Assembly (NCBI GenBank): GCA_965197285.1
Contig: OZ240092.1
Location: forward strand, 3,947,337 to 4,011,336
Reading direction: 5' to 3'
Length of the DNA: 64,000 nucleotides
Source: Acidobacteriota bacterium
Lineage (GTDB): Bacteria; Acidobacteriota; UBA6911; RPQK01; CBDAPI01
The notes under the pieces were generated by a model that was not told the DNA's origin, did no database searches, and saw only the letters and a program-made list of their open reading frames with translations. A program made the position numbers and the translations under genes. Below are positions 34,376 through 36,500 of the stretch, piece after piece. Positions within the stretch are counted from its first letter, which is position 1, and each line of letters starts with the position of its first letter.

Positions 34376-34630
34376 TCAGCCCCCGAAGCTGCGGAAGGAT
34401 GGCCGCCGGGATTCATATTCGCGGATGCGGTCCTCGACCTGCAGAGTGAGTCCCACGTCGTCGATACCCTGCAGAAGGCATTTCTTTCGAAAGCGATCGA
34501 TTTCAAAGCCGAAGCTGAGGGCGGGGCCGGCTTGAATCGTTTGTGACTCCAGGTCGACTCCTATTTCGTAGCCGCGTCTTGCCAGGGCGGCATCGCGGAG
34601 TTGAGTCACCCGGTTCTCTGGCAGGACGAT
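34376..34630 (-). pseudogene. leuD: 3' remnant of leuD (3-isopropylmalate dehydratase small subunit); only about 95 C-terminal codons remain
   Basis: ...[73 protein letters not shown] matches the LeuD C-terminus (FxIDxFRxxCLLxGLDDIGLTLQ); the N-terminal GCGSSREHAPWAL region is absent on either side of the IS. Confidence 0.6.
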
Positions 34631-36014
34631 GAGCTATGGTCGGAAGTTGTGTATGAGAGGCGGCGTATCCTGAATCCGTGACCTTCAATCATGGATTCAC
34701 CCGGAGACCGAGAAGGAGGATACGCCTTGAAGAAAGATACTGTAGTTTCCATCGACGAACCAACCACAACGAAGGATGCCTTGACGGAAGTTCTGCGTGA
34801 AGGAGCACAGAAGCTTCTGGCTGAGGCGGTTCAAGCCGAGCTGGAGGAGCTGCTGGAAGAGTACGAGGGTCAGCGTGATGGCCAGGGCCGCAAACGTCTG
34901 GTTCGCAACGGCTACCTGCCGAAGCGTGAGATCCAGACAGGGATTGGAGGAATCCCGGTTCGGATTCCGCGGGTTCGAGACCGTGGAACTGGTGAGGAGT
35001 CGGAGGAGATCATCCGCTTTCGTTCCAGCCTGGTGCCTCCCTATCTGAGACGTAGCAAGAGCGTGGAGGAACTGCTGCCCCTGCTTTACCTGAAGGGGAT
35101 CTCCACAGGAGACTTCTCGGATGCGTTGAGTGCACTGTTGGGGCCGGATGCACCGGGACTGTCGGCCAAGACGATCAGCCGGCTCAAAGGCAAGTGGGTC
35201 AAGGATTATGAGAAGTGGAGGCTGCGTGATCTCTCCAACAAGCGCTACGTTTACGTTTGGGCCGATGGCGTGTATGCCAACGTTCGCTTTGACGACGGCC
35301 GGCTTTGCCTTCTGGTGCTGATCGGAGCCCGTGCGGACGGCAAAAAGGAGCTGATTGCCGTGGAAGATGGCTACCGGGAAAGTGAGCAATCCTGGTGGGA
35401 GTTGCTGCGGAATCTGCGCTCCAGAGGCCTGCACAGGGGACCAAAACTGGCGATTGGCGACGGAGCGCTCGGATTCTGGAAAGCCCTGGCCAAGATCTAC
35501 GGCAATACGCGACAGCAACGCTGCTGGATGCACAAGACGGGCAATGTGCTCAACTGTCTGCCCAAGGCCGTTCAGCCAAAAGCAAAGACGGCGCTGCATC
35601 AGATCTGGATGGCTGAAACTCGAGAGAATGCCTATAGGGCCTTTGACGAGTTCATTGCCACCTATCAGCTGAAGTTTCCAAAGGCCACGTCCTGCCTGGC
35701 CAAGGACCGGACAGAGTTGCTGGCTTTCTACGATTTTCCAGCCGAGCACTGGCCACATCTGAGAACCACAAATCCGATCGAGTCGACCTTCGCAACCGTG
35801 AGACTGCGAACGGCCAAGACTCGAGGCTGTTTGTCCAGGCAAACCATGCTGACGATGGTCTTCAAACTATGCAGAAGCGCTGAGAAAAGATGGCGCCGGC
35901 TACAAGGTTGCCGGCGCCTCGGAGAGGTCATAGAAAACGTCACATTTGTAAACGGAATCCGTGAAAACGAGGTCGCCGCCTAATGGGTCCGTACCCAACT
36001 TTTGACAATAACTC
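34631..36014 (+). mobile_element. IS256-family insertion sequence (1384 bp) flanked by 9-bp direct repeat CAGGACGAT
   Basis: imperfect about 25-bp terminal IRs (GAGCTATGGTCGGAAGTTGTGTATG / rc GAGTTATTGTCAAAAGTTGGGTACG); TSD at 34622-34630 and 36015-36023. Confidence 0.8.
34691..35983 (+). CDS. IS256-family (mutator-type) transposase
   Basis: DDE transposase with the IS256 C-terminal signature (…YDFPAEHWPHLRTTNPIESTFATVRLRT…). Confidence 0.9.
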   Translation: MDSPGDREGGYALKKDTVVSIDEPTTTKDALTEVLREGAQKLLAEAVQAELEELLEEYEGQRDGQGRKRLVRNGYLPKREIQTGIGGIPVRIPRVRDRGTGEESEEIIRFRSSLVPPYLRRSKSVEELLPLLYLKGISTGDFSDALSALLGPDAPGLSAKTISRLKGKWVKDYEKWRLRDLSNKRYVYVWADGVYANVRFDDGRLCLLVLIGARADGKKELIAVEDGYRESEQSWWELLRNLRSRGLHRGPKLAIGDGALGFWKALAKIYGNTRQQRCWMHKTGNVLNCLPKAVQPKAKTALHQIWMAETRENAYRAFDEFIATYQLKFPKATSCLAKDRTELLAFYDFPAEHWPHLRTTNPIESTFATVRLRTAKTRGCLSRQTMLTMVFKLCRSAEKRWRRLQGCRRLGEVIENVTFVNGIRENEVAA

Positions 36015-36500
36015 CAGGACGATGGGCAGGAGGTCGTTATTGACACGAATGTCTTTCTCTCAGGCGTCTTCTTTGGCGGGCTACCCTGCCGGATCTTGAG
36101 GGCCTGGCGTGACAGCAAGCTCACCCTGGTTTATTCCTTGGAAATTCTGGGTGAGTATAGAAGAACGGGTGTCAGACTGGCACGTCGGTTCGAAGGGCTA
36201 GATCTCGATCCATTTCTCGCGCTGGTGGTAACTGAAGGCAGGCTTTTCGCCTCCCCCGCCCTGGATGAAGACGTGTGTGAGGACCCTGCAGACGACAAGT
36301 TCTTCGCATGCGCGGTCGCGAGCGGCTGCAGGCTGATTGTTAGTGGTGACAAGCATCTGCTCAAGGCAACGGGATACACAGCATTGAAGTGCTCCGGCCT
36401 CGAGCATTCGTGGAGAGTTATCTCTAGCCCGGATTATGCAAGAGATCTAAATTCAAGTGAGATTTGGGCCCAGGAAAAAGGCCGTAGCTCTCTGATATAA
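36015..36500 (+). pseudogene. PIN-family toxin (TIGR00305-like toxin-antitoxin component PIN family). Its 5' end is split off by the IS256 insertion and its 3' end runs into the IS1380 terminal repeat
   Basis: VVIDTNVFLSGVFFGG...DPADDKFFACAVASGCRLIVSGDKHLL matches the family; no start codon after the IS; a candidate original TTG start lies at 34601 on the other side of the IS. Confidence 0.6.

What the first reader, a model, noticed from the sequence alone, without database searches (positions are those of the whole stretch)
34376..36500. IS256-family insertion (9-bp TSD CAGGACGAT) splits a PIN-family toxin gene at its 5' end and sits on the stump of leuD
Removing the IS and one TSD copy restores …GAGTTGAGTCACCCGGTTCTCTGG CAGGACGAT GGGCAGGAGGTCGTTATTGACACGAAT…. 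This reads M(TTG)SHPVLWQDDGQEVVIDTNVF…, a plausible complete N-terminus for the TIGR00305-type PIN toxin whose body (36015-36500) is otherwise start-less. On the opposite strand the same junction completes …[20 protein letters not shown]… of a leuD 3' remnant that is itself preceded by a stop. So this was already a decayed region before IS256 arrived. The PIN gene's 3' end additionally runs into the IS1380 terminal repeat. Two different IS elements have therefore bracketed and inactivated one toxin gene.
Basis: partly seen in the sequence, partly recalled or inferred. Interest (0 to 1): 0.5.

Follow-up and report, generated by a model that had tools for sequence, protein, structure and literature searches.

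The report
IS-riddled dead toxin gene and leuD scrap
This is ordinary genome junk in an uncultured, probably Acidobacteriota, bacterium: a mobile element landed in a leftover partial copy of the leucine gene leuD, next to a toxin gene that had already lost its start and its antitoxin, while an intact leuD sits 89 kb away on the same contig.

Summary
The physical observation is exact. A 1384-bp IS256-family element lies at 34631-36014, flanked by the 9-bp duplication CAGGACGAT. A 100 % identical copy elsewhere has its own 9-bp duplication.

- **leuD scrap: right.** It is a dead partial duplicate. An intact leuCD operon lies about 89 kb away on the same 319-kb contig, and the scrap differs from that copy at 2 of 264 nt.
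- **IS256 splitting the PIN gene: wrong.** The target site and 9 more bases to its right are leuD sequence. PIN-derived DNA starts only at about 36031-36033, at codon 2-3 of the gene.
- **Proposed N-terminus MSHPVLWQDDGQE: wrong.** It is antisense leuD. The closest full-length homologues are about 133 aa and begin M/V-K-V-V-I/L-D-T-N.
- **What killed the toxin.** A microhomology junction with leuD removed its GTG start and its mazE-type antitoxin. A 1-nt deletion at 36377/78 also shifts the frame.
- **IS1380: no coding damage.** Its CTAG target duplication is the PIN stop codon, so the coding sequence is complete in its native frame. The gene's natural downstream DNA sits beside a second, inverted IS1380 copy 84 kb away, which points to an IS-mediated inversion.

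This is ordinary IS-driven decay and of low interest.

The parts
33413..34207 (+). Left neighbour: class I SAM methyltransferase gene (264 aa). The block 33228-34332 (segment A) is syntenic with the relative strain's locus L004.
   Evidence: Pfam Methyltransf_11/25. BLAST 33228-34332 against L004 gives 97-98 % identity.
34334..34630 (-). leuD 3' remnant, left part (segment E'). It comprises 42 nt downstream of the stop plus codons for LeuD residues 107-190 (coding 34376-34630, stop codon at 34376-34378).
   Evidence: NF002458 profile positions 112-197 of 202, 77.8 bits, below the full-length cutoff of 167. tblastn with LeuD residues 107-190 gives 97.6 %. 262 of 264 coding nt are identical to the intact leuD on the same contig.
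34622..34630 (.). Left copy of the 9-bp target-site duplication CAGGACGAT (leuD codons I-V-L on the minus strand).
   Evidence: The intact leuD copy (L087) carries this sequence once, unoccupied.
34631..36014 (+). IS256-family insertion sequence, 1384 bp. Imperfect terminal inverted repeats of about 25 bp lie at 34631-34655 and 35990-36014.
   Evidence: 100 % identical second copy with its own 9-bp duplication. Inverted-repeat alignment.
34691..35983 (+). IS256-family (Mutator-type DDE) transposase ORF, 430 aa. The gene caller used the ATG at 34727, giving 418 aa.
   Evidence: PF00872 213.5 bits. NF033543 305 bits against a cutoff of 150. L001 gene call.
36015..36023 (.). Right copy of the 9-bp target-site duplication CAGGACGAT.
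36024..36032 (-). Last 9 nt of leuD-derived DNA (GGGCAGGAG, codons L-L-P of LeuD residues 104-106). It shows that IS256 landed inside leuD sequence and not in the PIN gene.
   Evidence: Alignment of the restored sequence to intact leuD in L003/L004 and L087.
36031..36043 (.). leuD|PIN junction inside a microhomology patch. The window reads AGGTCGTTATTGA, leuD reads AGTCCGTTCTTGA, and PIN reads AGGTCGTTATTGA. The crossover is at AG|GTC.
   Evidence: leuD identity ends and PIN identity begins here.
36033..36427 (+). PIN_3 / TIGR00305 toxin pseudogene, from codon 3 (VVIDTNV...) to its native stop TAG at 36425-36427. The GTG start, the Shine-Dalgarno site and the upstream mazE-type antitoxin are missing. 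A 1-nt deletion between 36377 and 36378 shifts the frame.
   Evidence: The intact mazE-PIN pair in L005 is 90 % identical at nt level. There is no mazE-like sequence anywhere in the window.
36424..36427 (.). Left CTAG target duplication of IS1380. It consists of the last base of the Leu codon plus the PIN stop codon TAG.
   Evidence: Five-copy end comparison.
36428..38079 (+). IS1380-family insertion sequence, 1652 bp, with terminal repeats CCCGGATTATGCAAGA. The transposase ORF is 36543-37880 (445 aa).
   Evidence: PF13701 478 bits. NF033539 373 bits. Ends defined against copies in L003 (two copies), L004 and L005.
38080..38083 (.). Right CTAG copy. The flank beyond it is not the PIN gene's downstream DNA.
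38083..38523 (+). 5'-truncated plasmid-type repA fragment (146 aa, RepA_C profile positions 100-179 of 181) abutting IS1380. It marks this IS as a rearrangement breakpoint.
   Evidence: The PIN gene's true downstream sequence is found at the second IS1380 copy on the same contig (L087rc 4924 onward).

Best explanation
The region is a non-functional patchwork produced by several successive DNA rearrangements in an IS-rich chromosome, probably of an uncultured Acidobacteriota bacterium.

1. **Original layout (inferred from the relatives L004 and L005).** The order was methyltransferase ... mazE-PIN(+) - spacer D - leuD(-) - leuC(-), with PIN and leuD converging.
2. **Formation of the leuD|PIN junction.** A copy of about 306 bp of the leuD 3' end (codons 104-190 plus 42 nt downstream) was joined, in the same relative orientation, to nt 5-7 of the PIN gene. 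The join lies in a short microhomology patch. It replaced the antitoxin gene, the promoter and ribosome-binding region, and the GTG start. The junction itself is shown. How it arose is inferred: either a tandem duplication of [PIN-D-leuD3'] followed by deletion, or a template-switch patch. The result was a start-less, antitoxin-less toxin gene beside a leuD scrap, with the real leuCD operon untouched.
3. **IS1380 insertion and recombination.** An IS1380-family element that targets CTAG inserted at the PIN stop codon (CTC-TAG). It then recombined with an inverted copy about 84 kb away. This separated PIN from its downstream spacer and from the intact leuD. The two junctions are shown. The inversion is inferred from geometry.
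4. **IS256 insertion.** The IS256-family element transposed into the leuD scrap 9 bp from the junction and made the 9-bp duplication (shown). It interrupted nothing functional.
5. **Frameshift.** A 1-nt deletion frameshifts the PIN remnant. It is shown in the assembly, but I could not check whether it is real or an assembly error.
For: IS256 boundaries and duplication:
- fix the ends and the 9-bp duplication.

leuD sequence runs across the IS:
- leuD identity continues 9 nt beyond the right duplication copy and then switches to PIN identity.

PIN homologues:
- Most are 133-138 aa, and the aligned close ones start MKVV(I/L)DTNV.
- The intact relative L005 has a mazE-family gene whose stop overlaps the PIN GTG start (GTGA).
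- No mazE-like sequence exists in the window.

The remnant is a duplicate of this genome's own leuD:
- Intact leuD/leuC/HMGL lie on the same contig (ctg244364_11x) at about 241.4-242.0 kb, and the remnant lies at about 152.1-152.3 kb.
- The remnant carries that copy's private variants R and V.
- It is 262/264 nt identical to that copy, against 257/264 to the other strain's leuD.

IS1380:
- Its ends are CCCGG...CCGGG. CTAG duplications flank four of five copies.
- PIN ...TATCTCTAG|IS in the window and IS|CTAG-CCAAGACCTCTGCCGGGTGGGG (the PIN gene's native 3' flank, as in L004 and L005) at the second, inverted copy are the two halves of one insertion.

The arrangement is not a one-off assembly product:
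- The same 77-aa remnant ORF and the same intact LeuD are also on record on a contig of 5,753,059 bp.
Against: - The reciprocal product of the proposed single inversion does not rebuild one gene. The other two IS1380 flanks are the near-complete 3' end of a reverse-transcriptase/nitrilase-like gene and a repA fragment that starts at RepA_C profile position 97-100. At least one further event, or an earlier truncation of repA, is needed.
- No IS256-free or junction-free intermediate was found, so the order of steps 2-4 is inferred and was not observed.
- The first ~52 nt of the remnant segment (the 3' flank and the last few codons) are clearly more diverged from the source copy than the remaining 254 nt, which are identical. 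I have no explanation for this.
- The 1-nt deletion rests on an 11x metagenome assembly.
Confidence: 0.85

Rival explanations
1. A complete PIN toxin gene started at TTG 34601 (MSHPVLWQDDGQEVVIDTNV...), and IS256 insertion split and inactivated it.
For: Removing the IS gives an uninterrupted frame from TTG 34601 into the PIN domain. Read-through from the co-directional methyltransferase gene is conceivable, because no plus-strand terminator-like site lies between them.
Against: - Codons 1-13 of that ORF are the antisense of leuD codons that are identical to the intact leuD copy.
- No close homologue has the extension. TIGR00305 profile position 2 aligns to residue 14.
- The GGAG before the TTG abuts the start codon with zero spacing (read directly from the sequence).
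- No promoter-like site was found on the plus strand.
- An antitoxin-less active toxin would be counter-selected (inference).
Confidence: 0.07
2. The order of events is reversed. IS256 first inserted into a longer leuD copy, and the leuD|PIN junction formed afterwards, perhaps helped by a break near the IS.
For: The junction lies only 18 nt from the right end of the IS, a closeness that a causal link could explain. The IS copy is 100 % identical to another copy, so it is young. The remnant is also young, with 254 identical nt. The order is therefore not fixed by divergence.
Against: Deletions made by an IS itself start exactly at the IS end and remove one duplication copy. Here both copies and 9 further nt are intact. 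In the tandem-duplication model the junction is created at the same moment as the remnant, which must come before an insertion into it.
Confidence: 0.1
3. The mosaic is a metagenome mis-assembly that joins reads from related strains.
For: Coverage is low (11x), several near-identical IS copies are present, and a related strain at 19x exists in the same sample.
Against: - The leuD|PIN and methyltransferase|leuD joints are not at repeat boundaries.
- The remnant carries the variants of the leuD on its own contig and not those of the co-occurring strain.
- The same remnant ORF, with mostly the same neighbouring genes, is on record on a second contig.
Confidence: 0.03

Closest known systems
IS256 family insertion sequences (for example ISPaes3, 1393 bp; PMC3281130, Table 2)
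   Same: It has a single Mutator-type DDE transposase ORF that passes NF033543. Its length is 1384 bp, its terminal inverted repeats are imperfect and about 25 bp long, and its target duplication is 9 bp in two independent copies.
   Different: I could not assign it to a named ISfinder element because that database was unavailable. Its transposase is only 41 % identical to the other IS256-family element in the same genome (the 414-aa protein).
IS1380 family insertion sequences (for example IS1247, 1672 bp, 5-bp direct repeats; PMC3281130, Table 2)
   Same: The transposase passes NF033539 and PF13701. The element is 1652 bp with short terminal repeats that begin CCC, and it makes a short target duplication.
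   Different: The duplication is 4 bp, and it is CTAG in four of the five copies examined. This suggests a palindromic target preference. Here that preference places the element on a TAG stop codon.
TIGR00305 / PF13470 (PIN_3) toxins paired with MazE/AbrB-fold antitoxins
   Same: The PIN body scores above both curated cutoffs. It keeps the conserved acidic positions (D in VVIDTNV, DPxDDKF, SGDKHLL). The closest intact relative (L005, 90 % nt identity) has the typical mazE-PIN pair with overlapping stop and start (GTGA).
   Different: Here the start codon, ribosome-binding site, promoter and antitoxin are gone, and the frame is broken. It is a pseudogene and not a working toxin-antitoxin module.
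LeuD (3-isopropylmalate dehydratase small subunit, NF002458 / TIGR00171)
   Same: The last 87 of 190 residues are present and nearly identical to the genome's functional copy.
   Different: The N-terminal 103 residues, including the GSSREHA region, are missing. The score of 77.8 bits is far below the full-length cutoff of 167. It is a fragment duplicate.

Membership tests
IS256 family | Mutator-type DDE transposase | tested here: met
   PF00872 213.5 bits. NF033543 305 bits against a cutoff of 150.
IS256 family | Element of about 1.2-1.5 kb with imperfect terminal inverted repeats (range from my own knowledge of ISfinder; ISPaes3 is 1393 bp in PMC3281130) | tested here: met
   The length of 1384 bp is defined by a 100 % identical second copy. 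The inverted repeats match at about 20 of 25 positions.
IS256 family | 8-9 bp target-site duplication | tested here: met
   CAGGACGAT in the window. GCTGCTTAG at the L002 copy.
IS1380 family | IS1380-type DDE transposase | tested here: met
   NF033539 372.8 bits against a cutoff of 180. PF13701 478 bits.
IS1380 family | About 1.65 kb, short terminal inverted repeats, 4-5 bp duplication | tested here: met
   1652 bp, CCCGGATTATGCAAGA ends, and 4-bp duplications (CTAG four times, AACA once) across five copies.
TIGR00305 / PIN_3 toxin (as a functional toxin-antitoxin toxin) | PIN_3 domain above the curated cutoff with conserved acidic residues | tested here: met
   TIGR00305 53.5 bits against 29.15. 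PF13470 63.8 bits against 27. Conserved D17, D97/D100/D101 and D119 are retained.
TIGR00305 / PIN_3 toxin (as a functional toxin-antitoxin toxin) | Intact ORF with a start codon at the homologous position | tested here: not met
   The GTG/ATG-AAG of homologues is replaced by leuD-derived CAG-GAG. A 1-nt deletion lies at 36377/78.
TIGR00305 / PIN_3 toxin (as a functional toxin-antitoxin toxin) | Cognate antitoxin gene immediately upstream | tested here: not met
   tblastn with the L005 MazE-family antitoxin finds nothing significant in the window. The upstream DNA is leuD antisense plus IS256.
LeuD (functional gene) | Full-length match to NF002458 / TIGR00171 | tested here: not met
   Only profile positions 112-197 of 202 match, at 77.8 bits against a cutoff of 167. 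Only residues 104-190 of 190 are present.
   P0242 (190 aa) with leuC and an HMGL-like gene lies on the same contig about 89 kb away. It is 262/264 nt identical to the remnant.

The most novel reading that the evidence does not exclude
The leuD|PIN junction might have created a chimeric, expressed orphan toxin. Its first 13 codons would be the antisense of a leucine-biosynthesis gene, and it would be transcribed by read-through from the methyltransferase gene. In that case the IS256 insertion and the 1-nt deletion would be selected knock-outs of a harmful antitoxin-less toxin and not neutral decay.
Probability: 0.05. Interest if true: 0.35.

Novelty: new member of a known kind. Interest (0 to 1): 0.1.

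Why it matters
It matters little beyond annotation hygiene.

- Neither the 77-aa 'LeuD' ORF nor the PIN ORF should be annotated as a functional gene. The organism is not predicted to be a leucine auxotroph on this evidence.
- The locus is a tidy worked example of how IS256- and IS1380-family elements, a microhomology-mediated duplication junction and IS-IS recombination scramble a chromosome in an uncultured, IS-rich bacterium.
- It also shows how a frameshift and an antisense reading can suggest a false 'restored' gene start.

Tried and rejected
- **Junction search.** I searched for the leuD|PIN junction (GATGGGCAGGAGGTCGTTATTGAC), with or without IS256, in GTDB species genomes and in JGI metagenomes. 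Both gave 0 hits, so no intermediate state was recovered.
- **Reciprocal test of the IS1380 inversion.** Joining the left flank of the second copy to the window's right flank gives a 936-aa open frame, but RepA_C coverage does not grow (positions 97-179). The upstream part is the 3' end of a reverse-transcriptase/nitrilase-like gene whose homologue ends about 18 aa after the end of the match. A simple single reciprocal inversion is therefore rejected as the whole story.
- **Origin of the 4.2-kb block.** I asked whether the block between spacer D and leuD in this genome is the relocated block B of strain L004. There is no protein or DNA similarity apart from a shared IS256-like element, so this is rejected.
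- **Hybrid outward promoter.** The right end of IS256 carries an outward TTGACA 8 nt from its tip. No -10-like hexamer lies at 16-18 nt, and the promoter scan found nothing on the plus strand, so this is rejected.
- **mazE remnant.** I looked for one anywhere in the window and found none.
- **leuC or the 5' half of leuD.** Neither is present inside the 64-kb window. They were found outside it on the same contig.
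Full report
**1. The observation**

The region was read directly and ORFs were listed.
- CAGGACGAT occurs on the plus strand only at 34622-34630 and 36015-36023.
- The DNA between them carries a 430-aa ORF (34691-35983). It matches PF00872 (Transposase_mut, 213.5 bits) and NCBIfam NF033543 'IS256 family transposase' (305 bits against a cutoff of 150).
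- An exact-protein look-up found a second copy on an unrelated contig from another sample (L002).
- BLAST shows that copy to be 100 % identical over exactly window 34631-36014 (1384 bp) and no further. It is flanked by its own 9-bp duplication, GCTGCTTAG.

**2. What the IS landed in**

Two lines of evidence contradict this.

*Homologues.* A search with the restored protein (C-terminus corrected, see section 3) returned 258 homologues.
- The close full-length ones are 133 aa, and most of the 120 listed are 133-138 aa.
- Almost all cover only 89-93 % of the 144-aa query, so the N-terminal stretch is unmatched.
- In the alignment, all 13 full-length close homologues begin M/V-K/R-V/I-V/I-I/L/V-D-T-N. 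None has anything like SHPVLWQDDGQ.
- TIGR00305 profile position 2 aligns to residue 14 of the restored protein.

*DNA comparison.* Context look-ups found three related loci:
- an intact mazE-PIN pair in a more distant relative (L005, 90 % nt identity);
- two loci from a closely related strain (L003 and L004) in which the same PIN gene lies convergent to an intact leuD-leuC-HMGL operon.

Aligning the IS-free restored window sequence to these gives the following.
- Identity to intact leuD runs through the target site and on through GGGCAGGAG (36024-36032).
- Identity to the PIN gene begins at AGGTCGTTATTGAC (36031 onward), which is nt 5 of the PIN ORF.
- The switch lies in a microhomology patch: leuD reads AGTCCGTTCTTGA and PIN reads AGGTCGTTATTGA.

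Three conclusions follow.
- IS256 sits entirely in leuD-derived DNA, 9 nt from the junction.
- The PIN gene had lost its GTG start, its ribosome-binding site and its antitoxin at the junction itself.
Real LeuD here reads [20 protein letters not shown].

No mazE-like sequence exists anywhere in the window.

**3. The 3' end of the PIN gene and IS1380**

In frame +2 the sequence reads ...GIHSIEVLRPRAFVESYL*, which is the conserved C-terminus of every homologue. Compared with L004 and L005, the window lacks one C (GGATAC-ACAGC against GGATACCACAGC). This produces the frameshift that made the ORF appear to run to 36500. The native stop is TAG at 36425-36427.

Comparing five copies of the downstream IS gives its structure.
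- The transposase ORF is 36543-37880, with NF033539 at 373 bits.
- The element spans 36428-38079 (1652 bp) with ends CCCGGATTATGCA...TGCATAATCCGGG.
- It has a 4-bp duplication, which is CTAG in four copies and AACA in one.

In the window the left CTAG is the last base of the Leu codon plus the PIN stop codon. IS1380 therefore does not truncate the coding sequence.

The right flank is not the PIN gene's natural downstream sequence. L004 and L005 continue CTAG-CCAA(C/G)(A/G)CCTCTGCCGG... after the stop, whereas the window continues CTAG-TGGCTGACC. That sequence opens a 5'-truncated repA fragment (RepA_C profile positions 100-179 of 181).

**4. Is there an intact leuD?**

The results below show that there is.
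- A LeuD search found one cluster at 90 % identity or above (P0121).
- That cluster's three members are the L003/L004 protein, the window's 77-aa remnant ORF, and a second 190-aa LeuD, P0242.
- P0242 is encoded on the same contig as the window (ena:ERZ25072076:ctg244364_11x_l, 319,293 bp), at about 241.4-242.0 kb. It is preceded by leuC and an HMGL-like synthase (L087).
- The remnant lies at about 152.1-152.3 kb, roughly 89 kb away and in the opposite orientation.
- P0242 and the remnant share the private residues R (EIDRF) and V (LQVED), which distinguish them from the other strain's LeuD.
- At nt level the remnant differs from this copy at 2 adjacent bases in 264. It differs at 7 from L003.
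- The intact copy carries the unoccupied target CTCTGGCAGGACGATGGGCAGGAG|TCCGTT.

IS256 entered the duplicate after it was made.

Both the remnant ORF and P0242 are also recorded with a longest contig of 5,753,059 bp. This suggests an independent, probably chromosome-scale assembly with the same features.

**5. Where the PIN gene's downstream DNA went**

On L087 a second IS1380 copy (98.7 % identical, inverted relative to the window's copy on the contig) has as one flank CTAG-CCAAGACCTCTGCCGGGTGGGGCCC... This is the PIN gene's native 3' spacer, and it continues toward the intact leuD. PIN...CTAG|IS in the window and IS|CTAG-spacer in L087 are thus the two halves of one insertion at the PIN stop codon. 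They are now about 84.4 kb apart between inverted IS copies, which is the expected footprint of an IS-IS inversion.

Undoing that inversion gives this order: methyltransferase - leuD' | PIN - IS1380 - spacer - (4.2-kb block) - leuD - leuC. The leuD scrap then lies just upstream of PIN, and the source leuD lies just downstream. A tandem duplication of [PIN...leuD 3'] leaves exactly this permuted junction. Later loss of the upstream copy, or alternatively a template-switch patch, would give the present state. This mechanism is inferred.

The reciprocal check fails. The other two IS1380 flanks are the near-complete 3' end of a reverse-transcriptase/nitrilase-like gene and the repA fragment, and they do not rebuild one gene. 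At least one more event is required.

**6. Context**

The best LeuD matches in species-representative genomes are Acidobacteriota MAGs (79 % and 66 %), so the host is probably an uncultured acidobacterium.

The window carries many other mobile-element features:
- a second, intact-looking PIN gene (31836-32261);
- frameshifted IS91-type fragments (32231-33326);
- two IS3-family copies.

In the sister strain the same PIN gene is independently destroyed. An IS1380 sits at an internal CTAG (CTGG in the window), mazE is truncated to its last 27 codons, and the gene call there (P0069) implies a further frameshift. The toxin-antitoxin module is decaying in the whole lineage.

**7. Comparison with known families, and verdict**

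Both IS elements pass all the family criteria I could test. For size and duplication comparators, see ISPaes3 and IS1247 in PMC3281130. The PIN remnant has the domain but fails the tests for a start codon, an intact frame and an antitoxin. The leuD piece fails the full-length test.

Nothing here departs from well-known IS-driven pseudogene decay. His interpretation is partly supported: the dead leuD duplicate and the decay before IS256 arrived hold up, but the 'restored' PIN N-terminus and inactivation by the two IS elements do not. Interest is low.

Noticed in passing
L003/L004 8297-9957 with flanks 8224-8298 and 9951-10281: In the sister strain the same PIN gene is split by an independent IS1380 insertion at an internal CTAG. 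The window reads CTGG at that site (36100-36105). The sister strain's mazE is truncated to its last 27 codons. In L005 an IS1380 lies about 600 bp upstream of the intact mazE-PIN pair. That makes three independent associations of IS1380 with this toxin-antitoxin module.
   Followed up: partly
window 36424-36427 and 38080-38083; L003, L004, L005, L087: This IS1380-family element duplicates CTAG in four of the five copies examined (AACA in the fifth). This suggests a palindromic CTAG target preference that will often hit TAG stop codons.
   Followed up: partly
L087 17280-19649 (minus strand), about 84 kb from the finding on the same contig: A 789-aa ORF has a C-terminal part 67 % identical to plasmid 'reverse transcriptase like' proteins of Sphingobium and Sphingopyxis (1230 aa), possibly a defence-type RT-nitrilase. 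It is clipped about 12 codons before its expected end by the second IS1380 copy.
   Followed up: partly
window 38083-38523: A 5'-truncated plasmid-type repA (RepA_C profile positions 100-179 of 181) abuts IS1380. It looks like a remnant of an integrated plasmid in what appears to be chromosomal DNA.
   Followed up: partly
window 31836-32261 and 32231-33326: A second, apparently intact PIN (PF01850, VapC-like, 141 aa) is followed by overlapping ORFs in three frames. One of them matches Y2_Tnp (IS91-type), so this is probably a frameshifted transposase pseudogene.
   Followed up: no
window 44047-45191 and 52548-53690 (also 43924-44060 and 50683-50819): Two copies, 99.6 % identical, of an IS3-family element (rve, rve_3 and HTH_21 domains) lie in direct orientation about 8.5 kb apart.
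   Followed up: partly
window 34334-34385 compared with L087rc 9960-10010: The first ~52 nt of the leuD remnant segment (the 3' flank and the last few codons) differ at about 8 positions from the source copy, while the following 254 nt are identical. This mosaic pattern is unexplained. Gene conversion or a different origin for the left end are possible causes.
   Followed up: no
window 27390-33228 compared with L004 3139-3218: A 5.8-kb block (UPF0182, an SDF-family transporter, PIN, IS91-type fragments) is present in the window and absent from the sister strain, where only 79 nt separate the flanking homologous segments.
   Followed up: no
window 36001-36006: The right end of the IS256-family element carries a perfect outward-facing TTGACA 8 nt from its tip. 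This recalls the -35 boxes that IS256-type elements use for circle-junction or hybrid promoters. No matching -10 lies in the flank here.
   Followed up: partly
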